Shown: one piece after another, positions 7,506 to 60,704 of the stretch | How positions within the stretch are numbered: the first letter of the stretch is position 1 | Layout of the letters: each line of letters starts with the position of its first letter | From: Hyphomicrobiales bacterium | GTDB lineage: Bacteria > Pseudomonadota > Alphaproteobacteria > Rhizobiales > Methyloligellaceae | Length of the DNA stretch: 64,000 nucleotides | Direction of reading: 5' to 3' | NCBI GenBank assembly: GCA_965228625.1 | Contig: OZ245829.1 | Span: forward strand, 615,137-679,136 | The notes under the pieces: model-generated | Databases searched by the model: none | Seen by the model: only the letters and a program-made list of their open reading frames with translations | What the model was told of the DNA's origin: nothing | Position numbers and translations under genes: made by a program

Positions 7506-8168
7506 TCACTTCCAGTGCGGCGGATACGCGTTGTCGAAACCCTCGACCGCCTCGATGCGTTCGCGCCACGCGTCGAGGTTCGGCCAGTGCTTCCTCAAGG
7601 GGACCACGCCGAGCTTCATCGGCTCGGCTTCGGGACGCGCGGCGGCACGGCAAAGCTGCATGACGACCGGGAAAACGACCAGATCCGCGGCGCTCAAAGT
7701 CTCACCGGCAAGCCACGGCTCGGATGCAAGCCCCGTTTCGAGCAATACAAGCTCATCACGCACGCGCGCCATGGCCGCGGCAATCCGATCTGCGAACTCC
7801 TCGCCTTTTCCGCGAAAGAGTGGACGCGAGATATCCCCGATGCACTCCCGCAGGTAACCGTCGCATTCACTGATGACCTGCCAGATGCGGGCTGTCTGTG
7901 CTGGCGTCACTCCAAACAGCGGGGGCTCCGGCGCAATGGCGTCGAGATAGGCGAGAATCGCGAACGTCTCACAAACGACGGTGCCGTCGTGGACGAGGAC
8001 CGGAACCTGGCCGCGCGGATTGATCTTCAGAAACTCCGGCGCCTTTTGCTCGCGCTTGGCGTTGTCGAGCCGTCGGGGTGTATAGCCGATCCCCTTGACC
8101 TCCAGCGCCAGCATGACGGTCCAACACGGCGGCGAACCGGAAATGAAATACACATCGCACTGGGTCAT
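7506..8168 (-). CDS. glutathione S-transferase
   Basis: Start at MTQCDVYFISGSPPCW (ATG 8168). Thioredoxin-like N-domain with INPRGQVPVL..., 220 aa. Confidence 0.8.
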   Translation of the reverse strand: MTQCDVYFISGSPPCWTVMLALEVKGIGYTPRRLDNAKREQKAPEFLKINPRGQVPVLVHDGTVVCETFAILAYLDAIAPEPPLFGVTPAQTARIWQVISECDGYLRECIGDISRPLFRGKGEEFADRIAAAMARVRDELVLLETGLASEPWLAGETLSAADLVVFPVVMQLCRAAARPEAEPMKLGVVPLRKHWPNLDAWRERIEAVEGFDNAYPPHWK

Positions 8169-8290
8169 GAAAAGGTCGCCCGATTGACGCCACACAGGCC
8201 GTGGCATCAGCATATGCCCGCAACGGTGGTGGACGGCAAGGGACAATCGCAGGCGCGAAAGCCGACGCTCAGCCCGGCAATACGGTCCGT

Positions 8291-9290: not shown

Positions 9291-11351
9291 CTAGTTACAG
9301 GCGTCGACGTTCTCGAAGCTGAGCAACGTGCCGTTCTGATCCGTCACTTCGAGAATTCCGGCGAAGTTGCCGGTGCCGCGGCAAATTACGCCGGCGTTCG
9401 GCGCTGTGGTGACCTGATTGCCCGTGCTGCCGGCCGCGAGGGTCGTGCCCGCCGCATCAAAGAAGAAGGCGTCGTCATTGGCCCCGCCATTGCCGATGTT
9501 TGTGAGCGTGTTGTCCGCCAGCAGGACGTTGGTATTGCCGGCGCTTATGATGATGCCAACATTTGCCGTGCCGTTAATCGTGTTGCCCGAGATCGTCAGG
9601 TTGGTGTTGTTGTCGTTGATGAATATCGCATCGTCGCGCGTATCGACGATCGTATTGTTCGAAATCGTCACATTGGTGTTGCCGTTGTTGGAGCCGAGGA
9701 AGACGCCAACTTGTGTGTTTGTCAAAACGTTGTCAGATATGACCACGTTCACGTTGTCCCGATCCTGCAGGAACGCGCCGTTCGATCCGAGATTGGTCAT
9801 GATGTTGCGCGCAATCGTGATATTGGCGTTTTGCTGCTGGAAATGGACGCCGTCACCGCCGATATCCGTGAGGGTATTGTCGATGATGCGGACGTTTGAG
9901 TTATCGTCGTCGAAAAACACCGCATCTTCGCCAGTATCGGTTATCGTGTTGTTTTCAATCACGATGTTGGTCAGGTTATCGCGACCGCGGATACCGTGGT
10001 TGTCCGCGCCGACCCCGGGGTCGCCGACAATGTTCAATCCGGCAATATGGGTGTTGTTCGCGACGTTGAACACGCCGGTATCGGGATTTGTGTCATTTGA
10101 GAACAGCGTCGGCGTATTGCCGGGAGCGGTAAAAGGCACCACCTGACCCGAATTCTTGCCCCGGATGAGAATCGTGCTGCCGCCGCCCTGCACGGTTTGA
10201 TTGTCCTGCAGTATCTGGCCATCGGTGCCCGAGAGGTCGATCTGCGCGCCATTGCGCTGCACGATGATGAGCCGGTTGCCGCCAGCGTTCACCGCATCTC
10301 CGAGCTGGTTCGCGTTGGTGGCAAAGCTCACGGAGTTGAGAGCGACGTCGGTAGCGTCGTCAATGGCACCTTCCGTCGCCGTCGTGATGTCGGTCTGCTC
10401 GTTGGTGACGATGTCGGTGTCGCGCTCAAGGCCATCGGTCATGCGCAATTCCTGCGGTGTCAACGACGCGGTGCGCAACGCCGCGTCTGCGCCACGCGAC
10501 CCGAAGGGAATGCGCAGGCGCGCACCGATCTCGAACCTGGTTTCGCGTACGTCGTCGTAGGAAAGCTCGCTCTCGATGGTGAGGCGCGATCCGGGAAGCG
10601 ACGCGATCGCGTCATTGATGCGGTATTCAAGACGCCCTTTGGGACCGGCGATTTCGTCGTCCGCGTCATCATGATCGAACCAGAAGCCGCCGGCATAGGC
10701 TCTGAGTTCATGGCGCCTGGACGGTGCCAGGCCGTCCTTGAAACCCCCGGCCGTTCCACCGCGGGCACCGCCAAAAAGGAGAACGCCGAACTCCGCATCG
10801 ACCCCGTAATAGGCGAGTTCGCGGATCAGCGTATCTGTTTGCTGCACGAAGATGTTGTTGCCCTGAAGCAGTGCCGCAAACGTCGTCGTGTTCGAGACCG
10901 TTTCGTCGTCTTCGATCGGCACGTAGCCGTTGACGCGCAGATCATAGCGCTCGCTCAAGGCCTCGAGACCGAATGAGATCTGGTTGAACGTGTTATCGTT
11001 CGTTGTATCGCGGATATCCCAGCCGCCCCAGATGCCGAAATTCCAGCCCGAAGGCATCATCTGCCGGTAGCCGAGCGCGATATTGGCTTCCTGTACATCC
11101 TCTTCGAACAGCTTGCCGCGCGCATCGAGAAAGAACAGGGTTGTCGCCGACTGCATCAGCGGCGTGAACAGCACGATCTCGCCGCGGCTGCTGTCGTCGG
11201 TGCCGTAATAGCCGCCGAGCTCCCACCATCCGATGAACTTGTTCGGCGAGCCGGCGGTCACGTCCGAAGCGCGCGCCGAACCGGTGTAGAAAAACACAAT
11301 CGCCGCGACAAGCGCGAGAAATGCTGTCAGAGATTTGAACCGGGCCGTCAA
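9291..11351 (-). CDS. inverse autotransporter (type Ve) with right-handed parallel beta-helix passenger
   Basis: Signal peptide. N-terminal region matches the intimin/invasin beta-barrel pattern (NIALGYRQM...GIWGGWDIRD...SFGLEALSERYDLRVNGYVPI). C-terminal half has about 10 PbH1-like repeats (N-x-I-x-D/N-T/N...). Confidence 0.65.
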   Translation of the reverse strand: MTARFKSLTAFLALVAAIVFFYTGSARASDVTAGSPNKFIGWWELGGYYGTDDSSRGEIVLFTPLMQSATTLFFLDARGKLFEEDVQEANIALGYRQMMPSGWNFGIWGGWDIRDTTNDNTFNQISFGLEALSERYDLRVNGYVPIEDDETVSNTTTFAALLQGNNIFVQQTDTLIRELAYYGVDAEFGVLLFGGARGGTAGGFKDGLAPSRRHELRAYAGGFWFDHDDADDEIAGPKGRLEYRINDAIASLPGSRLTIESELSYDDVRETRFEIGARLRIPFGSRGADAALRTASLTPQELRMTDGLERDTDIVTNEQTDITTATEGAIDDATDVALNSVSFATNANQLGDAVNAGGNRLIIVQRNGAQIDLSGTDGQILQDNQTVQGGGSTILIRGKNSGQVVPFTAPGNTPTLFSNDTNPDTGVFNVANNTHIAGLNIVGDPGVGADNHGIRGRDNLTNIVIENNTITDTGEDAVFFDDDNSNVRIIDNTLTDIGGDGVHFQQQNANITIARNIMTNLGSNGAFLQDRDNVNVVISDNVLTNTQVGVFLGSNNGNTNVTISNNTIVDTRDDAIFINDNNTNLTISGNTINGTANVGIIISAGNTNVLLADNTLTNIGNGGANDDAFFFDAAGTTLAAGSTGNQVTTAPNAGVICRGTGNFAGILEVTDQNGTLLSFENVDACN

Positions 11352-29568: not shown

Positions 29569-29777
29569 ATACGTCGTAACAACTTAATGTTGTGCGCATC
29601 CATTACTGCAACTATTGATCGGTCTTTCTGTTGCGCAACCGCCACATCTGAAAAAAAACGGCAACTTGCAGTAGAAAATTTTTTCCCGACTGCTGGACCG
29701 TGACAAAAATCCGGGCCTTAGCTTCTTGTTGTAACGGACCCAAATCGTACATGGGGCCAAGCAAACAGGGGGCAGAA

Positions 29778-32597
29778 GTGAGCCGGAACAGGACGGCAAG
29801 GCGCAGGGCCGCCGCCCTTGCACGCAAGGAGCGCGGAAGGGCGCAAGTGTCTGCGCCCGGATTCCTGCGTGCCACCACTCTCGGTACGCTTGCCGCGAGC
29901 GCCGCGATATTCGGCTATGGCCGGACGACCCAGGCCGGTCCCGACGCCTGCGGTACCGTCGCCAATGTCGCCACGTGCACGGGAAACCAGTCGGCGGGCA
30001 TCACCAGTACCGCCGATTTCAATCCGGCCGTCGTCAACGTCCTGAACGTCAACACCCTGAACCAGGACATCGCGCCGGCTGCGGGCGTTTCCGGCATCTA
30101 CTTCAGGTCCGACGACGCCATCACCATCAACTCCGACACCGGTAACTTCGAGATCGTCACACAGGGAAGCGATACGTACGGCATATACGCCTACTCCGAG
30201 GTCTCCGGAAACGTCTCGATTACGCACAACGGGAATATCCGCACCGAAGGCAATTTCAGCTACGGCATATACGCCTATGCCGCCGACGGGGCGGTCACGG
30301 TTGTCCATACCGGCAACATCCGCAACAACGCCAGTTACAGCGGCGCGATCGATGCCCGCTCCGATAACGGCAACGTAACGGTCGAACAGACAGGGACGAT
30401 CATCACCGGAGCCACGGGTTTTGGAATCAGTGCTGAAAGCTACGGCCCGGGCACCGTCACCGTGGAGCAGACCGGCAGCATCACCACCGAGAATGCCGCC
30501 GCGATCCGTGCATTTTCCAACGGCGGCAACGTGGATGTTACGCAAACAGGGGACGTTACATCATCGAATTTCACGGCGATCAATGCAGGCTCGGACGGCA
30601 CTGGCAATGTGGCGGTCACGCAGATCGGCAACATCTCCACGGACGGAGTGCTTGCAGCCGGCATCTATGCGGTTTCCTACGGCTCCGGCCCAGTCACCGT
30701 GACGCAATCGGGCAACATCACCACGCAAGGCACCGGATCATTCGGCATCTTTGCGCGTTCCTATGGCGCAAGCCCGATTACAATCAACAAGACCGGCGGC
30801 CTGACGGCGAGCGGCGACGATGCTGACGGCGTCAGAGTGTACGCCAACGGCGGTGCGGTCACAGTCAATCTCTCCGGCGGTACGGTCCAGGGCGGTGGCG
30901 ACGACGCCGCAGGCGTCTATATTTCAAATATCGGCGGCACGTCGAACGAACTGAACATTGCCGCCAGCGGTACGCTCTGGGCCCTGTCCGGTATTGCCGT
31001 CACCAGCAACGACGGCGACGACGAGGTTAACAACGCCGGCACGGTGACCGGCAACGTCACGCTCGGAGCGGGAACCAACGCTTTCAACAATCTCGCCGGC
31101 GGGCAATTCAATTCGGGCGCAACTGTCGATCTCGGCGCGGGCAACCTGCTCAACAATGCCGGTACGCTGTCGCCCGGCGGCTCCGCCGCGGTCCAGACCA
31201 CGGCGCTGACTGGCAACATCAACCAGACAGCGTCCGGCGTGTTCGAGGTAGATGTGAACGGAGTGGCCGCAACCGCGGACCGGGTCAATGTGAGCGGATC
31301 CGCGAACCTTGCCGGCACCGTCCAGGCGCAGGTGCAGGACCCCACGTTCGGAACCCAATCAAATGTCATTCTGTCCGCTGCGGGCGGTGTCACCGACAAC
31401 GGACTCGGGCTCGTCTCGAGTCCGCTCCTGGAGGCGTCCCTGTCCTTCCCGAACGCCACCGACGTGGTTTTGACGACCACCGTCATCGGCTTCGCACCGC
31501 CCGGCGTGACCCTCAACCAGAACCAGACCAGTCTGGCGAACAACCTGAACGCGATACTGGGCTCCGGCGGCGGCACGGTCGGTCCGCTGCTGCTGGCGCT
31601 GCTCAACGACGTTCAGAGCGTGCCCGCCTATCTCAATGCGCTGGATCAGCTCATTCCCGAAGGCTACCTGAACACCGAGTCGGCTTCGCTGTTCGCGGCC
31701 GAGGAGTTCAACAACAACCTCCTGAGCTGCCCCAAGGCCGGCCCCGGCTTCACAGCCATCAGCCAGGGGCAATGCATGTGGGTGCGCTATGACGGAAGGT
31801 GGCTCGATAGAGACTCCACCCGCCAGAACATCGGCTATGACGAGGACACGCACGGGATTTCAGGTGGGGGCCAGGTCGCCGTCGCACCCAACTGGTTCGT
31901 GGGGCTCGCCGCGGCTTACGAGGATAGCGATCTCGATACCGACACCAATGCGTCCGCCGACACCGACCGCTACATGCTCGGCGGCGTCATCAAGTATCAG
32001 TCGGGTCCCGTGCTCATGGCGCTCGCCGGCTCCATCGGCACCGGCGAAGTCGACATGACGCGGCAGATCAGTTTCGGCGGCTTCAACGCCACGGCGCGTT
32101 CCAGTTACGACGTCGATCATGTGGGGGCGACCTTCCATGCGGCCTATCTTCTGGACCGCAGTAGCTGGTACGCGAAACCCTTCGTCGACATAAACGTCAC
32201 CCATATCGATAGGGACAGCGTGACCGAGACCGGCGGCGGGGCGGCAAACCTCAATCTTTCCGGCTCGGACGAGACCTATTTCTCGGTGACGCCCGCGCTT
32301 GAGCTCGGCACCACCATCGACAGAGGCGACGGGCGCGCCATCCGGCCATACGTGCGCGCCGGCGTGACCATCTATGGCGACACCGACCAATCGCTTACCG
32401 CGCGCTTCGTCGGCGCGCCGGCGGCGGCCGGCGGCTTCACCTCCACTTCGGAGTTCGACGACGTGTTCGCTGACATCGAGGCGGGCGTGACCCTGTTCCA
32501 TGGAGACCAGCACACCGTGTCCGCCGGCTACGAGGGCCGCTTCTCCGACGACACCGAAGTCCACGGCTTCTTCGTCAAGGGCACGCGGACGTTCTAG
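29778..32597 (+). CDS. autotransporter (type Va) with beta-helix passenger and C-terminal beta-barrel
   Basis: GTG 29778 with SD GGGGG (alternatives 29700/29751). Extended signal peptide, about 25-30 aa passenger repeats (GN-I-T...G-I-A), C-terminal barrel ending ...FFVKGTRTF. Confidence 0.85.
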   Translation: MSRNRTARRRAAALARKERGRAQVSAPGFLRATTLGTLAASAAIFGYGRTTQAGPDACGTVANVATCTGNQSAGITSTADFNPAVVNVLNVNTLNQDIAPAAGVSGIYFRSDDAITINSDTGNFEIVTQGSDTYGIYAYSEVSGNVSITHNGNIRTEGNFSYGIYAYAADGAVTVVHTGNIRNNASYSGAIDARSDNGNVTVEQTGTIITGATGFGISAESYGPGTVTVEQTGSITTENAAAIRAFSNGGNVDVTQTGDVTSSNFTAINAGSDGTGNVAVTQIGNISTDGVLAAGIYAVSYGSGPVTVTQSGNITTQGTGSFGIFARSYGASPITINKTGGLTASGDDADGVRVYANGGAVTVNLSGGTVQGGGDDAAGVYISNIGGTSNELNIAASGTLWALSGIAVTSNDGDDEVNNAGTVTGNVTLGAGTNAFNNLAGGQFNSGATVDLGAGNLLNNAGTLSPGGSAAVQTTALTGNINQTASGVFEVDVNGVAATADRVNVSGSANLAGTVQAQVQDPTFGTQSNVILSAAGGVTDNGLGLVSSPLLEASLSFPNATDVVLTTTVIGFAPPGVTLNQNQTSLANNLNAILGSGGGTVGPLLLALLNDVQSVPAYLNALDQLIPEGYLNTESASLFAAEEFNNNLLSCPKAGPGFTAISQGQCMWVRYDGRWLDRDSTRQNIGYDEDTHGISGGGQVAVAPNWFVGLAAAYEDSDLDTDTNASADTDRYMLGGVIKYQSGPVLMALAGSIGTGEVDMTRQISFGGFNATARSSYDVDHVGATFHAAYLLDRSSWYAKPFVDINVTHIDRDSVTETGGGAANLNLSGSDETYFSVTPALELGTTIDRGDGRAIRPYVRAGVTIYGDTDQSLTARFVGAPAAAGGFTSTSEFDDVFADIEAGVTLFHGDQHTVSAGYEGRFSDDTEVHGFFVKGTRTF

Positions 32598-52749: not shown

Positions 52750-53709
52750 CTAGATTCCGTCCGGCACCGTCTCGCCGGCATCCTGGAGTTTGGCTCGAAG
52801 CCTCTCGAACAGGGCTTCAAGTTCTCTCGTATCATCGGCGTCCATGGCCGGGCCCGGAGCGCGGGCGAGCGGACAGGAGAGCGCGCCAAGCCGCCTCAGC
52901 GACTCTTTCCTGAGTGCCAGACCGAAACCGAACTGCTGTTCATGCCGGATCAACGGCAGGTAGAGATCGAACAAGTCCTCGGCCGCGTCGGCCTTCCCCG
53001 CGGCGAACAGCTCGTAAACCTTGACCAGCGCGCCAATGAAGGCAAACCCGGTCATGATGCCGTCGGCGCCACGATGCAGCTCCTGCGGGACGTAAAGCCC
53101 CCCATTGCCCGTCAGGATCGAAACACGGCGCACGCCCTGCGTATCCGGCGCGTTGCGGAGCGCCGTCAGCTTGCGGTGTCCCGGGCAGTCCTCGTGCTTG
53201 AACATCTTGATGCGCGGATGATCGCTGATCAGCTTGTTGATCACGCCGTTGGAGAAATAAACCGTGGTCGTAGGCGGGTAGTCCTGCAGGCATACGGGCG
53301 TCGCATCGTCGAGCCCGGACATCACCTTGTCGAAATATGCCAGCACCTGCTCGTCGGTCTTCAGACCGCCGATGCCGGCGATCATCACACCGGCCGCGCC
53401 CGCATCCATCGACGCCTTCGACAACGCAACCAGATTATCGATCCCGGGATTGGAGACTCCCACGATTGCAGGAACGCGTCCGCCGACACGTTTGATGTAA
53501 CGCTGCATGAGCCGGGTCTGCTCGGAATCTGTCAGCTTCGGCGCCTCGCCCATCACGCCAAGGACCGTCATACCGTGCACGCCCTGGCCGATATAAAAGT
53601 CCGTCAGGCTGTCGACGCTGTCGAAATCGACCGCACCCGTCTCGGTGAACGGCGTCGCCGCGATGACGTAAACCCCTTTCGCCGTCTCATCCAACACTTC
53701 GGTTCCCAT
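52750..53709 (-). CDS. dihydrodipicolinate synthase / N-acetylneuraminate lyase family protein
   Basis: ...TPFTE.G.VDF.S...L..F.I..GV.G..VLG.MGE...L...E pattern, 319 aa. Confidence 0.8.
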   Translation of the reverse strand: MGTEVLDETAKGVYVIAATPFTETGAVDFDSVDSLTDFYIGQGVHGMTVLGVMGEAPKLTDSEQTRLMQRYIKRVGGRVPAIVGVSNPGIDNLVALSKASMDAGAAGVMIAGIGGLKTDEQVLAYFDKVMSGLDDATPVCLQDYPPTTTVYFSNGVINKLISDHPRIKMFKHEDCPGHRKLTALRNAPDTQGVRRVSILTGNGGLYVPQELHRGADGIMTGFAFIGALVKVYELFAAGKADAAEDLFDLYLPLIRHEQQFGFGLALRKESLRRLGALSCPLARAPGPAMDADDTRELEALFERLRAKLQDAGETVPDGI

Positions 53710-53829
53710 GCTTTGGTTTCGCTCCCTGCTTTCGAGTTGCTTTCATGCCCTTCGCCCGTCGGCACCGCACCCGGTGTCGTCGCGCCGGTTTTCGCACAGA
53801 TTGCACGATATGCTCGAGACGTTTGCCGA

Positions 53830-55440
53830 CTAGCTGGCGCTGCAGCGTTGTCTGTTCTTGTCTACGACGAGTGTCTCCAGCTCCACAGGCAATGCTCCCT
53901 TCCATGGCGTGTGAAATGGAACGGCGACCTCGGTCTCATTGATCGGGTCGGAGAACAGCGGCGCCTTTTTTCGCACACCCTCTACAAAGTTCACCATGAT
54001 TTGCTTGATACGCTTTTCGCTGGAGCGCCAAGGTTCTTTGTCTGTGGCACCAAATGTTCTGCCAAGGTCCTTTGAACCGAAATGGAGGACGTAGCCCGAG
54101 CCTGGCGTGCGTTGCATCACGGACATTGTGCCGAGCGTGTGTCCCACTCGATGACCAAGCTCGAATCCCAGTATTTCGTACTTGTACGCTCCAATCCTCT
54201 GCCGGTCGGGAACGGGAAGGCCCAGAGAATCGAAACCAATCAGGGGCGCACCGTCCCACTCCCTCGTTGCGAGTAGCGGCAAACAATCAAAACGCGTCAG
54301 GCCGGTGCCCTTGAACAGAGGATGGTTGGGCTGGGTGATAATGTAGCCACCCCAGCCCTTGGCCTCCTTTGGCCTGCGGAATTTCCCAAATCCACCCTTC
54401 TTGAAGTCGGCGCCCGTGCTTCGGTAAATCGGATAGTCCAGTCGCTTCTGGTGCCAGTTCGTCGTCTCAAGGGGCGTGCGCGCCAACGGATCGTTATGTA
54501 TCGAGCCGGTCTTGTACGATACCAGTACCGACCGGTCATCTCCCTCATATCGTGCCTGCCACCAAAGGGCGTTCCCGCCGGCGATGATCACGTGACCGCC
54601 GCGTGCAACAAAACCGTCGAAGGTCTCGCGGGCGCGCCGTGTCCAGTACTCGGGATGTCCGACGACCATCAGGACGTCAATTCCATCGAGGACTCTTGGA
54701 TCGTCCATCTCCCAGTCCGTCAGAAATGTAATGTTGGTTTCTTCACCGAATGGCTTGTCATTCGCGACCCACTTGACCAGTGGCAGCCACAAGACGGAAT
54801 GCGACCTGTGCATTGGCCTGTAGAAAGAGACTTTCGGAACGCGCACGGGATGAGAGTAGAGGCTCCGTCCAAGGGTTGTGGCGTAGGCATTGAAGGTATT
54901 TGTCCCGATCAGAATCGCGATATTCCTGCAGCACGCATTCTGGTTCGGGGGAAGCGCTTCCCGCTTCAGGGAATGCTCGTCATTCAGGACAAAGAACAGG
55001 TATGGCGAGTCGGCAACAAAATACAATCCGGGGCCGAATGTCGATGTATCGATCTTTGCCGTGACGTCGAAACCCGCACCGTCCAACCATGGCTTCAAGC
55101 CTTTGTACTCCTGCCGCCTCAGTGCTACGGGGGGCGTCAAGTGACGCGTGTCGCCATGCACGTCGGTGATTGCGAGGCGACGGAGTTGCGTTCTGATGTT
55201 TTGAGCGCTCAAAGCGAGCCCGAGCGTATCGCCAACATTTGCGCTCCACCCGGGTGCGACTATTTCCCCGTCCGGAGACAATTTGACAATGTAACCTTCG
55301 GCAATATCCTCACCGCTGACAGGAAAGTACTTCTCTGATACGGAAACTGCGCGCCATACCGCGAAGCACACGATCAAAATGACCGCAAAACTCAAACTCC
55401 ACGCCCCGGCCAGGCGCACAAAGGTGCCTTTCTCGCTCAT
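53830..55440 (-). CDS. membrane-anchored protein with N,N-dimethylformamidase beta-subunit-like (class I glutamine amidotransferase-fold) C-terminal domain
   Basis: N-terminal TM (LAGAWSLSFAVILIVCFAVW). IAILIGTNTFNAYATTLGRSLY and VVGHPEYWTRRARETFDGFVARGGHVIIAGGNALWWQARYE resemble DMFase large-subunit C-domain homologues. Lower GC than flanks. Confidence 0.5.
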   Translation of the reverse strand: MSEKGTFVRLAGAWSLSFAVILIVCFAVWRAVSVSEKYFPVSGEDIAEGYIVKLSPDGEIVAPGWSANVGDTLGLALSAQNIRTQLRRLAITDVHGDTRHLTPPVALRRQEYKGLKPWLDGAGFDVTAKIDTSTFGPGLYFVADSPYLFFVLNDEHSLKREALPPNQNACCRNIAILIGTNTFNAYATTLGRSLYSHPVRVPKVSFYRPMHRSHSVLWLPLVKWVANDKPFGEETNITFLTDWEMDDPRVLDGIDVLMVVGHPEYWTRRARETFDGFVARGGHVIIAGGNALWWQARYEGDDRSVLVSYKTGSIHNDPLARTPLETTNWHQKRLDYPIYRSTGADFKKGGFGKFRRPKEAKGWGGYIITQPNHPLFKGTGLTRFDCLPLLATREWDGAPLIGFDSLGLPVPDRQRIGAYKYEILGFELGHRVGHTLGTMSVMQRTPGSGYVLHFGSKDLGRTFGATDKEPWRSSEKRIKQIMVNFVEGVRKKAPLFSDPINETEVAVPFHTPWKGALPVELETLVVDKNRQRCSAS

Positions 55441-55573: not shown

Positions 55574-57067
55574 ATGGCGAAGCGTCATCCAGGTCATAAC
55601 TGCGCATCGATCGTGTCGGGCGCCCTTCTCGGGCATGGCGCGAAACACGCAATTTCGTGCGAGGGTGACGCCTACACGCGCGAAGAATTCCTGCGTGAGA
55701 TTGCGACAAGGCGGGCGCACTTTCGTCACAACGATGTCGGTCGCGACACCCGCGTCATTCTCGTCTCCGGACGCGGCTCGAAATTCTGGGCCGACTTCGT
55801 TGCGTTGTGGTCGCTTGGTGCTGTCGCCATTCCATTGGATCCAACGATAGACGAACGCCACGCAAGCGAGATCTCTCGCGCAGCCCGTCCAACGCATATC
55901 ATCGGAGAATTCAAGGTTCCGCCTGCAGCTCTCGACGGCCTGAAACAAATCGGCGAGCCCGAAGAAGACGTCGAGGGCGACCGGGACCCTTATGGCGGCA
56001 TCGAAATTGAACCGGTGGAGCCAGGTGAACTGGCCGGTCTCTTCTTCACCTCAGGATCGACCGGCCTGCCCAAGGGCGTCATGATCCGTCACGAAATGCT
56101 TGTCGCGAACATGTACGCGACACAGGCTCGGGTGAACCTGCTGCGCTCCGACAAACTCTTCATGGCGATCCCTTTCCGGTTCATCTCCTCGATCTCGCAT
56201 TTTCTGGTGACAATCCTCTCAGGAGCGAGCTTTGTCGCGACCGAACGGAACCTCATGCCCAAGGCCTTCATACAGGCGCTGCATTCCGCCGACATCACCG
56301 CATTCGGCGGGTCTCCGTTGCAAGTGCGGTTGATCAGCAGCGCGCCGAAGGACATGTTTCCGCGCCTGCGCTGGATCATGTCATCCGGGGACCATCTGTC
56401 CGAGGAGATCATCGAGGCGATGCGCCGGGCGCGTCCTGAGGTCGATATCAATACCGTGTACGGCCTGACAGAGTTGGCCGGACGGTTCTGCATGCTCCCG
56501 CCGGAACAGATCGACGCCAAAAAAGGGTCCGTCGGCCGTCCGATTCCCGGCCTCGCCGTGATCGTGCTCGATGACGACGGGCGACAGTGCGGCACCGGTG
56601 AGATTGGCCATGTCTACGCGCAAGGCGTGTGCTGTCTCGAGGGTTACATCGGCAACGAGGCGGCGACGCGCAAAGCCGTGACGCCGCATGGATTTCGCAC
56701 CGGCGATATGGGCATGCTCGACGAAGACGGTGATCTGTTCCTTGCGGGGCGATCGGACAGCGTGTTCAAGCGCTCCGGCCTCAAGGTCTCGTGCATTCCG
56801 ATCGCAGACGAACTCATGAAGCTCGACGCGTTTGCCGACGTCGCGGTCTTGCCGCGCGACGATGATCTGGAGGGCGCTGTCCCGGTGGCTTACGTGGTCT
56901 TGAAAAACGAAAAAGAGGTTGATCGGTCCAACGTGCTAGGGGCGCTTCGCTCCCGACTGTCGCCCAAACATCTTCCGGCCGAGTTCATCGTTTTGGATGA
57001 GATTCCGCGAACACGTTCCGGCAAAGTCAAATCGCATGAACTTGCCAAAATGCCAAAGCCGAGTTAA
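55574..57067 (+). CDS. ANL-superfamily adenylating enzyme, DltA-like carrier-protein ligase
   Basis: 497 aa. FFTSGSTGLPKGV (A3), YGLTE (A5), RTGDMG...GRSDSVFKRSGLKV (A7/A8), PRTRSGKV (A10). Confidence 0.8.
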   Translation: MAKRHPGHNCASIVSGALLGHGAKHAISCEGDAYTREEFLREIATRRAHFRHNDVGRDTRVILVSGRGSKFWADFVALWSLGAVAIPLDPTIDERHASEISRAARPTHIIGEFKVPPAALDGLKQIGEPEEDVEGDRDPYGGIEIEPVEPGELAGLFFTSGSTGLPKGVMIRHEMLVANMYATQARVNLLRSDKLFMAIPFRFISSISHFLVTILSGASFVATERNLMPKAFIQALHSADITAFGGSPLQVRLISSAPKDMFPRLRWIMSSGDHLSEEIIEAMRRARPEVDINTVYGLTELAGRFCMLPPEQIDAKKGSVGRPIPGLAVIVLDDDGRQCGTGEIGHVYAQGVCCLEGYIGNEAATRKAVTPHGFRTGDMGMLDEDGDLFLAGRSDSVFKRSGLKVSCIPIADELMKLDAFADVAVLPRDDDLEGAVPVAYVVLKNEKEVDRSNVLGALRSRLSPKHLPAEFIVLDEIPRTRSGKVKSHELAKMPKPS

Positions 57068-57112
57068 CTGGCGGAGGCTCGGTCAGGCAATGCCAACGGT
57101 GTGCAACTTTCG

Positions 57113-58105
57113 ATGAAGAAGTTTTTCGGAGCAACTCTCGTCGTTTGCCTCGTTCTTGGCTTTCTGATCGTTCGCGGCGACAGCGCAGAGGTCAGATATC
57201 GCGGCTCGGACTGCAACTACTATCTGACATACGAGAACACCGGACCCATCAGTCTGGCGGGCTTTGGCGGCTCACGCATGCGGACGGCGTTTGACGCCGA
57301 CGACCTCGCGCGGATCCTGAGAGACAGCGGGCATCCCGAAGCAATTGTCTACAATGGCGGGCACAGCCATTACTCCATAGAGAAGGAGTATGTGCTGGTA
57401 CGCGACCTGTTGGAGACCCGGCAGGTGAAGACCGTGGTCGTGATGCTGCAACCCCGCGCGATGGACTACGCCCTCATCAGCCGTGATTTCAAATCCATCG
57501 CACGCGTTCGGGACATTCCGACCATTGTCAACGCGGTTGCCCATGAAAGCCTGGTCGAAGGCGTAGCCACATCTTTCAAGGTCCTCAGCGAAAGACTGAA
57601 GCTTCCCGAGCCCGTTCCGTCCTGTCACGACAAAAAGAATGCCAAACGAAGACTTTGCAAGGTCGCCGTTCATCGCGAAGATCCGACACGCAATTGCCAT
57701 CCGGGAGATTACAGAGCCGACCTTGATCGCCTTCTGGATGCAGAGAGTCGGGTGGAAAAGATGTCAACGCAGATCAGGGAATGGGACCCCACCTCCCTGG
57801 AAAACCGTTTCACTTTGCATTTCATCAAAAGAATCCAGTCGCTCGCCGCATCAAAGGACACTGCGGTGTTCTTTCTGTTCCTGTACCGGACAGGCAAGCC
57901 GTTCTTGCCGGACGGGTTGAGCGAGCGGTTCAAGATGGAAACAGGCGCGGAGCTTTTGATACCGCCCAGGGACATGGTCAGCCAGCTCGCAATCGATGGA
58001 CGACGAGATCCAACGCACATGAATTCAAAAGGGCGCGCGCTGTTCCTCCCCTGGATGATCGCCGAAATCAAATCCAGATGCCCCCGCGCTGACGGATGTC
58101 TCTAG
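57113..58105 (+). CDS. TM-anchored SGNH/DltD-like acyltransferase or esterase candidate
   Basis: Start at MKKFFGATLVVCLVLGFLIV. FGGSRM (block I-like Ser) near the N-terminus and DPTHM (D-x-x-H) near the C-terminus, in the order seen in SGNH/DltD. Confidence 0.45.
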   Translation: MKKFFGATLVVCLVLGFLIVRGDSAEVRYRGSDCNYYLTYENTGPISLAGFGGSRMRTAFDADDLARILRDSGHPEAIVYNGGHSHYSIEKEYVLVRDLLETRQVKTVVVMLQPRAMDYALISRDFKSIARVRDIPTIVNAVAHESLVEGVATSFKVLSERLKLPEPVPSCHDKKNAKRRLCKVAVHREDPTRNCHPGDYRADLDRLLDAESRVEKMSTQIREWDPTSLENRFTLHFIKRIQSLAASKDTAVFFLFLYRTGKPFLPDGLSERFKMETGAELLIPPRDMVSQLAIDGRRDPTHMNSKGRALFLPWMIAEIKSRCPRADGCL

Positions 58106-58117
58106 TCGGGTCGGAAA

Positions 58118-58270
58118 ATGAAGTTGAAAATCGGAAAACTGGCGACACGGAAAAACGTCCTTCACCTCATTCGCAGTTTCTGCGTATACAGCGTGCTCGC
58201 CATTGCCGTTATTTATGCCGTCAATTACTGGCCGTTCGGTGAGATCAGGGCGGTCTATGAACGGTATTGA
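58118..58270 (+). CDS. 50-aa single-TM peptide, DltX-like candidate (MKLKIGKLATRKNVLHLIRSFCVYSVLAIAVIYAVNYWPFGEIRAVYERY)
   Basis: Below the ORF-track cutoff, translated codon by codon. ATG lies 12 nt after the upstream stop. Basic N-terminus, one TM helix, Tyr-containing C-terminal hexapeptide. Confidence 0.45.
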   Translation: MKLKIGKLATRKNVLHLIRSFCVYSVLAIAVIYAVNYWPFGEIRAVYERY

Positions 58271-58322
58271 TGTTGGAATGTTCTGTGCCGATGAGCTGCC
58301 GCTCGCATAGGGGGCCCGGGAG

Positions 58323-59186
58323 GTGGGTGTGCGCGCAATCTTCAAGTCAGCATCCGTTGTCTCATGGCGCTTTGCCAAGCCGCTCGTAATCCTGGCTGTT
58401 TTTGTTGTTCTCTGGAGCGTGGTACTGACGCTGGCGGTGAAGTCCGGATTCCTCTGGGACGTGCTTTCACCCCGCCTGGCCGCGGACCAGCGATACGGCA
58501 CGCAGAACCTGGTCATGAGCACGGCCGACACGGCAAAGCGCGTTCTCGTGATCGGTGACAGTGCGTTCGTGGCGCGCCTCCGGAAAACTGATGACGCCAG
58601 GTCCGATACCGAATTTCTGACCATTGATGCGCTTGACCCGGACGATATCACCACCGCACTCAGCGCGATTGCACGGCACAACAGGAAGCGAGAAAACAAG
58701 GTTCAGTTCTGCAGGCTTGTCCTGCAGGTCTCACCATACTTTGTGGCGCGCATGCGGGATCGGGGAAGCCGCCAAGACGTGACATATTTGCGCGCGCTGG
58801 AGCAGAAAAGTCCGCCATTCATACCGAACAGGTCGACAAAGACCTTTTTCCAGACGCTGACCAAATGGGCACGGACCCGACCGGCCAAGCTGGACACATC
58901 CGATCCGCAACGCCCCCCGGACTTCCCGCCACAGATTTCGACGCCTGATCCCAACCTCGAAAACTGGACGAAGGTTGAAAGACAGCTTCGCAACAGTGCA
59001 GTCCCGGTCGTCGTTGTTGCTGACCGGAGGTTCTCGGACTATGCGCGGGCGCCTCGGCTCCTCGGCTATTTTGACCGCGACTTCCGAGACCGCATCGTGA
59101 GAGGTCAGGAAACGTCCGGACTCACCACATGGGCTGAATTCTCCGACCTGCGCAACTTGGCGTGGGCGACGTGCCCCAGCTCATAG
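58323..59186 (+). CDS. TM-anchored protein with GDS (SGNH block I-like) motif, no C-terminal D-x-x-H
   Basis: GTG 58323 or 58329 (SD GGGAGG). TM PLVILAVFVVLWSVVLTLAV, VLVIGDSAF. Contains only one His (ARHNRK). Confidence 0.45.
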   Translation: MGVRAIFKSASVVSWRFAKPLVILAVFVVLWSVVLTLAVKSGFLWDVLSPRLAADQRYGTQNLVMSTADTAKRVLVIGDSAFVARLRKTDDARSDTEFLTIDALDPDDITTALSAIARHNRKRENKVQFCRLVLQVSPYFVARMRDRGSRQDVTYLRALEQKSPPFIPNRSTKTFFQTLTKWARTRPAKLDTSDPQRPPDFPPQISTPDPNLENWTKVERQLRNSAVPVVVVADRRFSDYARAPRLLGYFDRDFRDRIVRGQETSGLTTWAEFSDLRNLAWATCPSS

Positions 59187-59204
59187 TGACGGGGCAGTCC
59201 GACC

Positions 59205-60356
59205 ATGCTTGGTGACGTTCTTCTCTATGCGATCTTCGTAGCGCTGGCGTTCTGCCTTTATTGGGTCGCGCCGGGAGACCGGCCGAACATTCGCATCGCG
59301 ATCCTCCTGTGCGTCTCCGCTGCGTTCATTTTTCTCGTTTCGCCCGGCGGCTTCCTGTCGGTGCTGGCTCTGTTCGTTGTTGTCATTGTCGCCAACAGGG
59401 TCTTTGTGCGGTTCAAGACGCCTTACATCCTTCCGATTTTTCTCGGCCTCGCCGTTCTCCCGCTTGTTCTGAGCCGCACCCTCGGAGACCTGACTTTCGT
59501 CTTCACGCTCGGCATCGCTTTCGCAACGGTCCGGAGCATCGGCCTGGTGCTTGATTCCTATGCGGGTCGCAACGTGTTGGAAAAGGCTCGTGTTGGGCTC
59601 TATCTGTTCTTCTTTCCCCTGTATGCGGTCGGTCCCGTTGAGAAGTTTGACTCGTTCCAGGCGAGGTGCTTCACGACGCCGTTTGTTCTTGAGAACGTGT
59701 ATGTCGGCCTTACACGCATGGCCTACGGGGTATTTCTGGCCCATTTCGTCTGCGACTCGCTCATTCTGAACGTCATCAACAATTGGCTGCCGGGCGGGGA
59801 AAGAGCATTCGCCGATTTCACCGTCTCGAACGCGTGGTCATACGTGTTTCTGAGATTTCTCTACACGTATCTGAATTTCGTTGCCTTTACCGAAATTGCC
59901 ATCGGCACATGCCGACTGTTCGGGATGCATATCGTCGAGAACTTCAACTGGCCTCTGATCTCGCGGAACATTCAGGATTTCTGGCGGCGGTACCACATTT
60001 CGATGGGCAACTGGATTACCCGTTATCTGTTCTTTCCCGTTGTCGGTGTCTTGCGGACGGACTGGGCGGTCTATGTCGCCAGTATTTTCTCGTTTGTGAT
60101 GTTCGGGTTGTGGCACGCCTTCACACCAAACTACCTGTTTTGGGGAATCATGCACGGGCTTGCCATTGCGACTTACCAATTCTATCGCAATGCCGAACTG
60201 TACGGCCGGATTCAGCGAATGCGGGTAATCGCCGTACCATTTGGTCTGATTGGCGGCATCATGACCATTTGTTACGTTGCGTGGTTGCAAACGTTCGCGA
60301 ACCTCTCGACCTTCGACGCCGGTTTGGAGCTTACGTCCAGGATGATCGGATGGTAG
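59205..60356 (+). CDS. MBOAT family O-acyltransferase (DltB/AlgI-like)
   Basis: Polytopic. FWRRYHISMGNWITRYLFFPV and GLWHAF...WGIMHGLAI match the MBOAT signature including the catalytic His region. Confidence 0.85.
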   Translation: MLGDVLLYAIFVALAFCLYWVAPGDRPNIRIAILLCVSAAFIFLVSPGGFLSVLALFVVVIVANRVFVRFKTPYILPIFLGLAVLPLVLSRTLGDLTFVFTLGIAFATVRSIGLVLDSYAGRNVLEKARVGLYLFFFPLYAVGPVEKFDSFQARCFTTPFVLENVYVGLTRMAYGVFLAHFVCDSLILNVINNWLPGGERAFADFTVSNAWSYVFLRFLYTYLNFVAFTEIAIGTCRLFGMHIVENFNWPLISRNIQDFWRRYHISMGNWITRYLFFPVVGVLRTDWAVYVASIFSFVMFGLWHAFTPNYLFWGIMHGLAIATYQFYRNAELYGRIQRMRVIAVPFGLIGGIMTICYVAWLQTFANLSTFDAGLELTSRMIGW

Positions 60357-60440: not shown

Positions 60441-60704
60441 ATGAAAGCCGACGACATCAAAGAGAAGCTATATGCCTATTTCTCCCAGGAATGCGGGATC
60501 AACAAAGAGAGCATAGAAGCGAACCAGCCCATCTTCTCGACCGGACTTTTGGACTCGATCGAGTTGATCAAGCTGATCTCATTCATCGACAAGGAGATCG
60601 GGGTTACAATCAACCCGCTGGACATCGGCTTCGATGAGTTCGATACCATTGATCGGATCGTTGCGAATATCGAAAACGCCGCCGCACCATCGCAAGTCGC
60701 CTAA
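60441..60704 (+). CDS. acyl/peptidyl carrier protein (DltC-like)
   Basis: 87 aa, SD AGGAA. GLLDSIELIKLI phosphopantetheine-attachment Ser motif. Confidence 0.85.
   Translation: MKADDIKEKLYAYFSQECGINKESIEANQPIFSTGLLDSIELIKLISFIDKEIGVTINPLDIGFDEFDTIDRIVANIENAAAPSQVA

What the first reader, a model, noticed from the sequence alone, without database searches (positions are those of the whole stretch)
58118..58270. Unannotated 50-aa single-TM ORF ending in AVYERY: candidate DltX-like acyl-shuttle peptide
The ORF is shorter than the 60-aa track cutoff. Its ATG lies 12 nt after the stop of the DltD-like gene, and the ORF ends 52 nt before the next gene. The sequence is MKLKIGKLATRKNVLHLIRSFCVYSVLAIAVIYAVNYWPFGEIRAVYERY: a basic N-terminus, one hydrophobic helix and a short tail whose last six residues are aliphatic-aliphatic-Tyr-acidic-basic-aromatic.

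In Firmicutes dlt operons, a roughly 45-50 aa membrane peptide (DltX) has been reported to receive the D-alanyl group on a Tyr within a conserved C-terminal hexapeptide and pass it from the MBOAT DltB to DltD. As I recall it, that hexapeptide is of the FIYNEF type. The same size, topology, terminal Tyr motif and operon context here suggest an analogous shuttle. If so, that mechanism would extend to a Gram-negative system.
Basis: partly seen in the sequence, partly recalled or inferred. Interest (0 to 1): 0.7.

Follow-up and report, generated by a model that had tools for sequence, protein, structure and literature searches.

The report
DltX-like tyrosine-tailed membrane microprotein gene
The 50-codon ORF is a real, strongly conserved gene for a tiny membrane protein that most likely carries an acyl group on a tyrosine near its tail, handing it from a membrane acyltransferase to a periplasmic enzyme; this is a variant, in a Gram-negative bacterium, of the DltX shuttle known from Gram-positive bacteria.

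Summary
The ORF at 58118-58270 (+) exists exactly as described. It is under strong purifying selection: in codons 24-50 there are 14 synonymous and 1 non-synonymous differences from a 74%-identical metagenomic copy.

It sits in a conserved gene set: adenylating enzyme, SGNH/DltD-like protein, microprotein, unknown ~280-aa protein, short DltB-like MBOAT and carrier protein. I recovered this set in 8 other loci. Seven of them encode the microprotein, usually right after the SGNH-like gene.

All eight copies end in A-[V/I]-Y-[E/Q]-x-Y. The Tyr is fourth from the C-terminus and the last residue is aromatic, the same register as the DltX/PatA "FxYxxF" shuttle motif.

Among 104 MBOAT homologues, 0 of 75 short ones (420 aa or less) carry a fused terminal Tyr motif, against 25 of 29 longer ones. 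Short MBOATs therefore appear to need the motif in trans.

Acyl-Tyr chemistry and translation remain untested. No sequence homology to DltX (Pfam PF12459) is detectable, and the motif departs from FxYxxF at positions 1 and 6. The adenylating enzyme lacks the Asp that binds an alpha-amino group, so the cargo is probably not D-alanine. I rate it a new variant of a known kind.

The parts
58118..58270 (+). Microprotein gene (50 aa): basic N-terminus, one TM helix, periplasmic tail ending in AVYERY.
   Evidence: sequence; purifying selection; homologues; topology.
58250..58267 (+). Codons for the C-terminal hexapeptide A45-V46-Y47-E48-R49-Y50. Tyr47 (58256-58258) is the proposed acyl acceptor.
   Evidence: A, Y(-4) and Y(-1) are invariant in all 8 subfamily copies, written with different synonymous codons. 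The register matches FxYxxF of DltX/PatA (PMC12148441).
57101..58105 (+). Membrane-anchored SGNH/DltD-like protein (334 aa) with invariant GGS58R, N85 and D303-x-x-H306. Proposed to receive the acyl group from the microprotein and pass it to the final acceptor.
   Evidence: invariant residues; AF2, pLDDT 70, pTM 0.74; Foldseek top hits are DltD 6pfx, 7dxm, 6o93, then PatB. No Pfam or NCBIfam hit.
59205..60356 (+). Short MBOAT (383 aa), DltB-like, with no fused C-terminal Tyr motif (ends ...SRMIGW). Its W-H304-A-F aligns with the W-H-G-I of DltB.
   Evidence: PF03062; TIGR04091 DltB 1e-30, below cut-off; best PDB matches DltB 8jem and 6bug, E 6e-25; tail survey.
60441..60704 (+). Carrier protein (87 aa) with a PP-binding domain and an LDS phosphopantetheine attachment site; DltC-like.
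   Evidence: DltC PRK05087 6e-9, below cut-off; PF00550 3.5e-9; conserved in all loci.
55574..57067 (+). Adenylating enzyme (497 aa), the DltA analogue that loads the carrier protein. The Asp235-equivalent position is Ile.
   Evidence: best PDB match an LgrA A domain, 1.5e-52; DltA 1.8e-28; query F-I aligns with F-D; PFRFISSISH in seven of the eight subfamily enzymes compared; FHFTSALSH in L010.
58323..59186 (+). Conserved membrane-anchored protein of unknown fold (287 aa), present in every cluster. The G-D is invariant, but the following Ser is not, and there is no invariant His.
   Evidence: No PDB or Pfam hit. AF2 single-sequence model unusable.
53830..55440 (-). Membrane-anchored DMFA2_C-like protein (536 aa), divergently transcribed. 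A possible accessory component.
   Evidence: PF20254, 6e-32. Homologues lie inside or beside the cluster in L008 and L011.

Best explanation
The ORF encodes a single-pass inner-membrane microprotein (N-terminus in, C-terminus out). It is the trans-acting 'acyl shuttle' of a carrier-protein-dependent MBOAT-SGNH envelope acylation system in a diderm bacterium.

Proposed pathway:
1. The adenylating enzyme (55574-57067) activates a carboxylic acid and loads it on the phosphopantetheine arm of the carrier protein (60441-60704).
2. The short DltB-like MBOAT (59205-60356), using His304, transfers the acyl group through the membrane onto Tyr47 of the microprotein. Tyr47 is the fourth residue from the free C-terminus, within A-V-Y-E-R-Y.
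3. The flexible tail carries the acyl-Tyr ester to Ser58 of the membrane-anchored SGNH/DltD-like protein (57101-58105).
4. That protein transfers the acyl group to an unknown periplasmic or envelope acceptor.

Shown here: the gene is real and under selection; the cluster composition; the fold class of the partners; the motif conservation and register; and the absence of a fused motif in short MBOATs.

Inferred: every chemical step, the topology, and the identity of the acyl group and the acceptor.
For: Selection. Between the window and L001, codons 24-50 differ by 14 synonymous and 1 non-synonymous change. Third codon positions are identical in 23 of 50 codons, second positions in 45 of 50. 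Only this frame is open in the three loci compared.

Conservation. All 8 subfamily copies (window, L001, L004, L007, L008, L009, L010, L013) end in A-[V/I]-Y-[E/Q]-x-Y. RAVYERY is identical in L004 and L009, where the flanking SGNH-like protein is only 43% and 32% identical.

Position. The gene directly follows the SGNH-like gene in 7 of 8 cases, with gaps of 2-76 nt, and follows the MBOAT in L010.

Partners. The best solved relatives of the MBOAT are DltB structures, E 6e-25, with the catalytic His aligned. The SGNH-like model best matches DltD and then PatB, and it has an invariant Ser/Asn/Asp/His set.

Need for a trans motif. Of 104 MBOAT homologues, 0 of 75 that are 420 aa or shorter end in Y-x-x-aromatic, whereas 25 of 29 longer ones end in F-[I/L/F]-Y-F-x-F.

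Other short-MBOAT loci. Two more distant ones have adjacent microproteins with the canonical motif: L012 (Luteitalea) ends FRYQGF and L014 ends FIYVSF.

Literature. DltX and PatA use the invariant Tyr of a C-terminal FxYxxF as a covalent acyl carrier between MBOAT and SGNH (PMC12148441; PMC13653941).

Topology and operon. The topology fits: basic N-terminus, about 19-22 hydrophobic residues, and a tail of about 15 aa. No terminator-like site lies between the ligase gene and the MBOAT gene.
Against: - There is no experimental evidence of translation or of an acyl-Tyr intermediate.
- No detectable sequence homology to DltX: no PF12459 hit at E up to 10 for any of the 8 microproteins scanned (seven subfamily copies plus the Luteitalea one).
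- hhalign against the fused tails of long MBOATs is not significant, probability 0.3-4.5%.
- The motif has Ala where DltX/PatA have the first Phe, and Tyr where they have the last Phe.
- Two other Tyr residues (Y33 and Y50) are also invariant within the subfamily, so the acceptor residue is assigned by register only.
- No microprotein was found in the 12.4 kb retrieved for locus L011.
- The SGNH-like model is of moderate quality (pLDDT 70), and its fold matches are weak (E 2e-3, TM about 0.4).
- The Shine-Dalgarno-like sequence is weak (GGA at -6 to -4).
Confidence: 0.7

Rival explanations
1. The microprotein is a non-covalent structural or adaptor subunit. Its TM helix holds the MBOAT and the TM anchors of the SGNH-like and 287-aa proteins together, or gates the MBOAT funnel. 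The conserved tail would be a docking peptide for the SGNH domain, and the MBOAT would hand the acyl group directly to the SGNH serine or to the acceptor.
For: The TM segment is also strongly conserved (Y-S-x-L-A-x-x-x-I-Y-x-x-N-x-W-P), as expected for specific helix packing. The DltX tail is known to bind DltD with micromolar affinity (PMC13653941). The motif departs from FxYxxF at two of the three defining positions.
Against: The register of the invariant Tyr (fourth from the free C-terminus) and the terminal aromatic residue match the motif shown to be covalently acylated in DltX and PatA. All MBOAT homologues of 443 aa or more in the sample carry that motif fused, and all short ones lack it. 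This points to an obligatory chemical role rather than scaffolding.
Confidence: 0.17
2. The shuttle model is right, but the acyl acceptor is another invariant tyrosine: the C-terminal Tyr50, which replaces the terminal Phe of FxYxxF, or Tyr33 at the outer end of the TM helix.
For: Y33, Y47 and Y50 are all invariant in the 8 subfamily copies. Assignment to Y47 rests only on the register shared with FxYxxF.
Against: Y47 is the only residue apart from Met1 that stays invariant when the canonical-motif microprotein of L012 is added to the alignment. The position fourth from the C-terminus is the acylated one in DltX and PatA.
Confidence: 0.08
3. The ORF is a regulatory leader or ribosome-arrest peptide (MifM/SecM-like: N-terminal TM segment, conserved C-terminal arrest sequence) that tunes translation of the downstream gene.
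For: It is a small ORF with a TM segment and an extremely conserved C-terminal peptide, lying upstream of another membrane-protein gene in the window and in L001.
Against: The downstream neighbour is not constant. It is the 287-aa gene in the window and L001, the carrier-protein gene in L004, L007, L008, L010 and L013, and none in L009, which is convergent with the MBOAT. The constant neighbour is the upstream SGNH-like gene. The TM residues are conserved at the amino-acid level too.
Confidence: 0.03
4. The ORF is a chance open frame in a GC-rich intergenic or overlapping region and is not expressed.
For: It is short, has a weak Shine-Dalgarno sequence and has no family annotation.
Against: pN 0.016 against pS 0.76 over codons 24-50. 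The frame is intact in 8 loci down to about 31% identity of the neighbouring genes, and the tail is identical despite different codons.
Confidence: 0.01

Closest known systems
DltX (Pfam PF12459/DUF3687), the microprotein of the Firmicutes dltXABCD D-alanylation operon
   Same: Size of about 40-60 aa. Basic N-terminus, one TM helix and a short extracytoplasmic tail. An invariant Tyr fourth from the free C-terminus and an aromatic last residue. Encoded with an adenylating enzyme, a carrier protein, a short MBOAT without a fused motif, and a membrane-anchored SGNH fold protein.
   Different: No detectable sequence homology (no PF12459 hit). The motif is A-[V/I]-Y-[E/Q]-x-Y rather than F-x-Y-x-x-F (FIYNEF). 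The gene follows the SGNH-like gene instead of heading the operon. The host is diderm, with autotransporter genes in the window. The adenylating enzyme lacks the Asp that binds an alpha-amino group, so the cargo is probably not D-Ala. The cluster has an extra conserved ~280-aa membrane protein and, in some loci, a DMFA2_C-like protein.
PatA/PatB (and AlgI-, WssH-type) MBOAT-SGNH acetylation systems of Gram-negative bacteria with a fused C-terminal FxYxxF
   Same: An MBOAT plus a periplasmic SGNH transferase. A Tyr in a C-terminal hexapeptide carries the acyl group. The SGNH-like model here also matches PatB structures.
   Different: In those systems the motif sits on two extra C-terminal TM helices of a roughly 440-510-aa MBOAT, and the donor is acetyl-CoA. 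Here the MBOAT is 383 aa, the motif is on a separate gene, and the donor is an acyl-carrier protein.
dlt operons of Gram-negative bacteria (Dickeya, Pectobacterium)
   Same: Carrier-protein-dependent MBOAT systems in proteobacteria.
   Different: Those are described in the literature as the dlt genes themselves (PMC5541007, PMC10142376). The cluster here is a distinct, rare family: the SGNH-like protein has only 3 relatives among 5.8 billion proteins by word-indexed search, and the gene content and probable substrate differ. I did not examine those operons directly.
Microproteins with the canonical FxYxxF motif next to short MBOATs in other phyla, found here (L012 Luteitalea sp. TBR-22; L014)
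   Same: Short MBOAT (395 and 412 aa) plus an adjacent 47- or 60-aa TM microprotein ending in Y-x-x-F.
   Different: Their motif is canonical (FRYQGF, FIYVSF). Their MBOATs are only about 28% identical to the window's, and their partner genes differ.

Membership tests
DltX (Pfam PF12459 / DUF3687) | Significant match to the family profile | tested here: not met
   No PF12459 hit at E up to 10 for the window protein or for any of the 8 microproteins scanned. Such short proteins give HMMER little power.
DltX (Pfam PF12459 / DUF3687) | Single-pass membrane protein of about 50 aa: basic N-terminus, about 22-aa hydrophobic segment, about 15-aa outside tail (PMC5541007) | tested here: met
   50 aa; 5-6 Lys/Arg before the hydrophobic stretch; best 19-aa hydrophobic window with mean Kyte-Doolittle score 2.1; 15-18-aa tail with no net charge. 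Topology is inferred from the positive-inside rule only.
DltX (Pfam PF12459 / DUF3687) | Invariant Tyr in a hexapeptide at the extreme C-terminus (third residue of the six) | tested here: met
   Tyr47 of AVYERY is invariant in 8 of 8 subfamily copies, and remains so when the canonical L012 microprotein is added.
DltX (Pfam PF12459 / DUF3687) | Strict F-x-Y-x-x-F consensus (PMC12148441) | tested here: not met
   Position 1 is an invariant Ala. Position 6 is an invariant Tyr, which is aromatic but not Phe.
DltX (Pfam PF12459 / DUF3687) | Encoded with DltA-, DltB-, DltC- and DltD-type genes | tested here: met
   AMP-binding enzyme, MBOAT closest to DltB structures, PP-binding carrier, and an SGNH fold protein closest to DltD structures. 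All four score below the curated Dlt equivalog cut-offs.
DltX (Pfam PF12459 / DUF3687) | Carries D-alanine destined for teichoic acid | tested here: not met
   The adenylating enzyme has Ile (Thr in L010) where A domains have the Asp that binds the alpha-amino group. The host encodes an autotransporter beta-domain, so it is diderm. The actual substrate and acceptor are unknown.
DltX (Pfam PF12459 / DUF3687) | Forms a covalent acyl-O-Tyr intermediate dependent on the MBOAT His | not testable with these tools
   Needs biochemistry or mass spectrometry.
Bacterial MBOAT-SGNH acyl-shuttle systems (general mechanism, PMC12148441) | MBOAT with the conserved catalytic His | tested here: met
   W-H304-A-F is invariant in the three closest copies (window, L001, L004) and aligns with W-H-G-I of DltB 8jem.
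Bacterial MBOAT-SGNH acyl-shuttle systems (general mechanism, PMC12148441) | Extracytoplasmic SGNH partner with a Ser nucleophile and an Asp/His pair | tested here: met
   GGS58R, N85 and D303-x-x-H306 are invariant in 8 sequences. The fold matches DltD, PatB and SGNH esterases. An N-terminal TM helix and invariant Cys residues fit a periplasmic location.
Bacterial MBOAT-SGNH acyl-shuttle systems (general mechanism, PMC12148441) | Terminal Tyr motif, either fused to the MBOAT or supplied in trans | tested here: met
   The MBOAT ends in ...SRMIGW with no motif. 0 of 75 short homologues have one, against 25 of 29 long ones. The only frame in the window that ends in Y-x-x-aromatic is this ORF.

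The most novel reading that the evidence does not exclude
Every short bacterial MBOAT (roughly 440 aa or less) works with a separately encoded microprotein bearing a terminal Tyr. This would contradict the current statement that MBOAT pathways other than Dlt lack a DltX-like microprotein. The window's family would then define a previously undescribed envelope modification of marine and soil Alphaproteobacteria-like diderms. In it, a carboxylic acid that is not an alpha-amino acid, possibly made by the aldehyde dehydrogenase that neighbours the cluster in four loci, is loaded on a carrier protein. It is then passed through an A-V-Y-E-x-Y shuttle to an unknown periplasmic or outer-membrane acceptor, with a second conserved pseudo-SGNH-like protein as a new component.
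Probability: 0.4. Interest if true: 0.75.

Novelty: new variant of a known kind. Interest (0 to 1): 0.58.

Why it matters
The acyl-tyrosine shuttle is the recently established answer to how bacteria move acyl groups across the membrane onto envelope polymers. So far it is known as DltX in Firmicutes and as a fused tail in acetyl-CoA-dependent MBOATs.

This locus shows a sequence-unrelated microprotein with a variant motif doing, in all likelihood, the same job in a carrier-protein-dependent system of a Gram-negative bacterium.

The length/motif split among MBOATs gives a simple, testable rule for finding missed microprotein genes next to short MBOATs. Three of the copies found here were not called by the gene callers of their source records.

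It also points to an uncharacterised envelope modification, with unknown acyl group and acceptor. One carrier is a named isolate, Pelagibius sp. Alg239-R121, in which it could be studied if the strain is available.

Tried and rejected
- **Pfam and NCBIfam scans of the microprotein.** Nothing relevant. The only hit was a sub-threshold Sterol-sensing match, E 0.029, taken as TM-helix noise.
- **Microprotein profile against PDB sequences.** Only chance matches to TM or other segments (folliculin, opioid receptor); rejected.
- **phmmer of the microprotein against 1.84 billion representatives.** Only itself and the L004 copy. The word-indexed search found only itself and the L001 copy.
- **Pattern scans of GTDB genomes and JGI metagenomes with the 3-sequence alignment.** They re-found L004 and L003 only. 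The wider family was reached through MBOAT homologues and their contigs instead.
- **hhalign of the 8 microproteins against the last 55 residues of 25 long MBOATs.** Not significant: probability 0.3% in global mode and 4.5% in local mode. Common descent of the separate and fused shuttles is therefore not shown.
- **Profiles of the SGNH-like and 287-aa families against PDB sequences.** No meaningful hits.
- **hhalign between those two families.** Probability 0.1-1.7%, so paralogy is not shown.
- **AF2 of the 287-aa protein without an alignment.** pLDDT 40.6, unusable, so no fold search was run on it.
- **Locus L011.** No microprotein found, by motif scan, by listing small ORFs around the MBOAT 3' side and the locus end, or by permissive tblastn. 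The locus is cut by the flank limit just beyond the DMFA2_C-like gene, so absence is not proven.
- **Schultz et al. 2023 (PMC10664464).** Not held. The mechanism is cited from PMC12148441 and PMC13653941.
- **The OlsHI ornithine-lipid ACP lead for the carrier protein.** It is a GH3-type pathway of planctomycetes and unrelated.
Full report
**1. The observation**

It runs from the ATG at 58118 to the TGA at 58268-58270 and encodes 50 codons: MKLKIGKLATRKNVLHLIRSFCVYSVLAIAVIYAVNYWPFGEIRAVYERY. It starts 12 nt after the stop of a 334-aa ORF (57101-58105) and ends 52 nt before a 287-aa ORF (58323-59186). No alternative in-frame start lies upstream, because the frame opens at 58106.

Of the 1338 stop-to-stop frames of at least 25 aa in the window, this is the only one ending in Y-x-x-[F/Y/W]. 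The identical protein already exists, unnamed, in the public protein collection.

**2. The surroundings**

On the + strand the cluster reads as follows.

| Coordinates | Product | Evidence |
|---|---|---|
| 55574-57067 | Adenylating enzyme, 497 aa | AMP-binding, 7e-54 |
| 57101-58105 | 334-aa protein, N-terminal TM helix | No Pfam or NCBIfam hit |
| 58118-58270 | Microprotein, 50 aa | This finding |
| 58323-59186 | 287-aa protein, N-terminal TM helix | No hit in any library |
| 59205-60356 | MBOAT, 383 aa | PF03062; DltB TIGR04091 1e-30, below cut-off |
| 60441-60704 | Carrier protein, 87 aa | PP-binding 3.5e-9; DltC model 6e-9, below cut-off |

- The best solved relatives of the MBOAT are DltB structures (8jem, 6bug; E 6e-25). 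Its W-H304-A-F aligns with the catalytic His region of DltB.
- The MBOAT ends in ...SRMIGW, with no tyrosine motif.
- A membrane-anchored DMFA2_C-like protein is divergently encoded at 53830-55440.
- No terminator-like site separates the genes from 55574 to 59205.
- The window also encodes an autotransporter beta-domain protein (29700-32597; PF03797, 5e-45) and a protein with a weaker inverse-autotransporter beta-domain match. The host is therefore diderm.

**3. Is the ORF a gene?**

Yes. A 74%-identical copy lies in the same position in a metagenomic contig (L001-L003).

Between the two copies, third codon positions are essentially saturated (23 of 50 identical), while second positions are almost unchanged (45 of 50). 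In codons 24-50 there are 14 synonymous and 1 non-synonymous differences (pS 0.76, pN 0.016). Only this frame of the six is open in the window, L001 and L004.

The last seven residues, RAVYERY, are written with different codons in the three loci. The conservation therefore acts on the peptide, not on the DNA.

**4. How wide is the family?**

Direct searches with the microprotein reached almost nothing:
- a word-indexed search of 5.8 billion proteins gave two hits;
- phmmer over 1.84 billion representatives gave two hits;
- pattern scans of GTDB genomes and of JGI metagenomes each gave one locus already known.

The SGNH-like neighbour is similarly rare, with three hits.

Searching with the MBOAT opened the family. 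It showed a clade of about 37 MBOATs of about 383 aa at 39-53% identity, followed by a drop to about 30%.

I read the contigs of seven members of that clade. All carry the same six-gene set in shuffled order (tblastn table). In six of the seven, a scan for frames ending in Y-x-x-aromatic picked out one small TM ORF inside the cluster.

| Locus | Source | Tail | Called in the source record? |
|---|---|---|---|
| L004 | Hyphomicrobiaceae MAG | ...LEAVRAVYERY | yes |
| L007 | metagenome | ...LEPIRAVYEAY | no |
| L008 | - | ...LAGITAVYEGY | yes |
| L009 | - | ...FESVRAVYERY | yes |
| L010 | - | ...FSSLLAVYQLY | no |
| L013 | Pelagibius sp. Alg239-R121 | ...LSTIQAIYENY | no |

- With the window and L001, that makes eight copies. 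All end in A-[V/I]-Y-[E/Q]-x-Y.
- The Ala, the Tyr fourth from the end and the terminal Tyr are invariant.
- The gene follows the SGNH-like gene directly in seven of the eight copies (gaps of 2-76 nt) and follows the MBOAT in L010.
- In L011 I found none within the 12.4 kb available.
- Across the nine loci scanned (L004 and L007-L014), 10 of 2767 frames ended in the pattern. Nine of the ten were the in-cluster microprotein.

**5. The partners**

*The 334-aa family.* Eight sequences share an invariant G-G-S58-R, N85, H88 and R-D303-x-x-H306, together with invariant cysteines. This is the block I / III / V pattern of SGNH enzymes in an oxidising compartment.

An AF2 model built on a 3-sequence alignment (pLDDT 70, pTM 0.74) gives as top Foldseek PDB matches three DltD structures (6pfx, 7dxm, 6o93; E 2e-3 to 6e-3, probability 0.98-1.0). 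PatB of N. gonorrhoeae and C. jejuni come next, followed by generic SGNH esterases. The scores are weak (TM about 0.4), but the ranking is coherent.

*The 287-aa family.* It is present in every cluster, but it has no invariant Ser or His: the motif G-D is followed by S, T, A or P. It has no detectable relatives, no significant relation to the SGNH-like family, and no usable model. It remains an unexplained conserved component.

**6. Why a separate tyrosine tail is expected here**

The literature states that DltB passes D-Ala from DltC to an invariant Tyr in the C-terminal hexapeptide FxYxxF of DltX. DltX then delivers it to the Ser of the SGNH protein DltD. Other bacterial MBOATs carry the same motif fused, on two extra C-terminal TM helices. 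PatA of Gram-negative bacteria auto-acetylates that Tyr, and PatB uses the acetyl-hexapeptide as donor (PMC12148441). L. plantarum DltX ends in NQAKFIYNEF (PMC13653941).

I checked the C-termini of the 104 MBOAT homologues returned.

| MBOAT length | Number | Ending in Y-x-x-aromatic |
|---|---|---|
| 420 aa or less | 75 | 0 |
| more than 420 aa | 29 | 25 (all F-[I/L/F]-Y-F-x-F) |

The four exceptions in the longer group are 432-439 aa. The split is therefore clean: long MBOATs carry the shuttle, and short ones do not.

Two more distant short-MBOAT loci have an adjacent microprotein with the canonical motif:
- Luteitalea sp. TBR-22 (L012): 47 aa, ending in FRYQGF, with a carrier protein and an adenylating enzyme in the cluster;
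- L014: 60 aa, ending in FIYVSF, immediately after a 412-aa MBOAT.

This runs against the published statement that other MBOAT pathways lack a DltX-like microprotein. It makes the window's microprotein one instance of a broader pattern.

**7. Mechanism proposed**

1. The adenylating enzyme loads an acid onto the carrier protein.
2. The MBOAT, through His304, moves the acyl group onto Tyr47 of the microprotein at the periplasmic face.
3. The tail swings to Ser58 of the SGNH-like protein.
4. That protein acylates an unknown envelope acceptor.

The chemistry, the topology and the acceptor are inferred. The topology rests on the positive-inside rule: 5-6 Lys/Arg lie before the TM segment and the tail has no net charge.

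The cargo is probably not D-alanine. In the HMMER alignment to an LgrA A domain, the F-D of the A4 core aligns with F-I in the window enzyme; this Asp is the Asp235 that binds the alpha-amino group of the substrate, which is established A-domain knowledge. PFRFISSISH is conserved in seven of the eight subfamily enzymes compared (FHFTSALSH in L010). The Luteitalea enzyme keeps F-D.

An aldehyde dehydrogenase gene flanks the cluster in L007, L008, L011 and L013. This hints at an acid made in situ, but it is a lead only.

**8. Membership versus analogy**

As a member of the DltX family (PF12459) the protein fails. There is no profile match. The strict FxYxxF is not met at positions 1 and 6. The operon position and the likely cargo also differ.

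hhalign against the fused tails of long MBOATs is not significant either. In global mode, though, the two architectures line up end to end with the Tyr in register: a basic residue, then a TM helix, then a short linker, then x-x-Y-x-x-aromatic at the free C-terminus.

As something that works like DltX, it meets every feature I could test: size, architecture, an invariant Tyr fourth from the free C-terminus, a terminal aromatic residue, the four partner types, and an MBOAT without its own motif.

**9. Rivals**

- **Scaffolding subunit without covalent chemistry** (about 0.17). It cannot be excluded without biochemistry.
- **Another invariant Tyr, Y50 or Y33, as the acceptor** (about 0.08). This is a variant of the main model.
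- **Leader or arrest peptide** (about 0.03). Unlikely, because the downstream gene varies between loci while the upstream SGNH-like gene is constant.
- **Chance ORF** (about 0.01). Excluded by the substitution pattern.

**10. Verdict**

It is a new variant of a known kind: a sequence-unrelated microprotein with an A-V-Y-E-x-Y tail, in a rare carrier-dependent MBOAT-SGNH cluster of diderm bacteria.

Interest is moderate to high for people working on envelope acylation. The mechanism itself is already established elsewhere. The value lies in the new system, the variant motif, and the simple length rule that predicts missed microprotein genes.

Noticed in passing
window 58323-59186 (+); homologues in L001, L004, L007-L011, L013: A ~280-aa membrane-anchored protein is present in every cluster but matches no Pfam, NCBIfam or PDB entry. 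Its G-D is invariant, but the next residue varies (S/T/A/P) and there is no invariant His. It may be a degenerate, non-catalytic SGNH-like partner or something else entirely.
   Followed up: partly
window 55574-57067 (+), residues ~205-215 (PFRFISSISH): The adenylating enzyme has Ile where NRPS A domains and DltA-type enzymes have the Asp that binds the substrate's alpha-amino group. PFRFISSISH is conserved in seven of the eight subfamily enzymes compared (L010 has FHFTSALSH, with Thr at that position). The activated acid is therefore probably not an alpha-amino acid, although the best solved relative is an LgrA A domain.
   Followed up: partly
P0007-P0110 (MBOAT homologues of window 59205-60356): There is a clean split between length and motif. 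All 25 homologues of 443 aa or more end in F-[I/L/F]-Y-F-x-F, and none of the 79 homologues of 439 aa or less ends in Y-x-x-aromatic.
   Followed up: yes
L012:6803-6946 (Luteitalea sp. TBR-22, AP024452.2) and L014:8258-8440: Microproteins with the canonical shuttle motif (FRYQGF, FIYVSF) lie next to short MBOATs outside Firmicutes. L012 also has a carrier protein, an Orn/DAP decarboxylase, a sulfotransferase and an adenylating enzyme that keeps the F-D motif. L014 has no carrier or ligase nearby, and a 726-aa protein follows.
   Followed up: partly
window 53830-55440 (-); L008:2989-4701; L011:186-1502: A membrane-anchored DMFA2_C-like (PF20254) protein accompanies the cluster in three loci. 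An aldehyde dehydrogenase gene flanks it in L007, L008, L011 and L013. Both are possible accessory or substrate-supplying functions.
   Followed up: no
window 57101-58270 (+); L001:2-925: The SGNH-like ORF and the microprotein ORF are in the same reading frame, separated by one TAG and four codons. Stop-codon readthrough would fuse them. This also holds in L001 but not in L004, so it is probably incidental.
   Followed up: partly
L007:4257-4388, L010:~8168-8287, L013:4932-5090: The microprotein gene was not called in these three public records. In L013 it seems to start at a TTG 5 nt after the SGNH-like stop.
   Followed up: yes
window 29700-32597 (+) and 9291-11351 (-): An autotransporter (PF03797 beta-domain) and a beta-helix protein with a weaker inverse-autotransporter beta-domain match. 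These are outer-membrane proteins, and they show that the host is diderm.
   Followed up: no
window 52942-54075 (+): This 377-aa ORF has no family match. It lies antisense to two Pfam-supported genes, DHDPS-like at 52750-53709 (-) and DMFA2_C-like at 53830-55440 (-), so it is probably a spurious GC-rich open frame.
   Followed up: no
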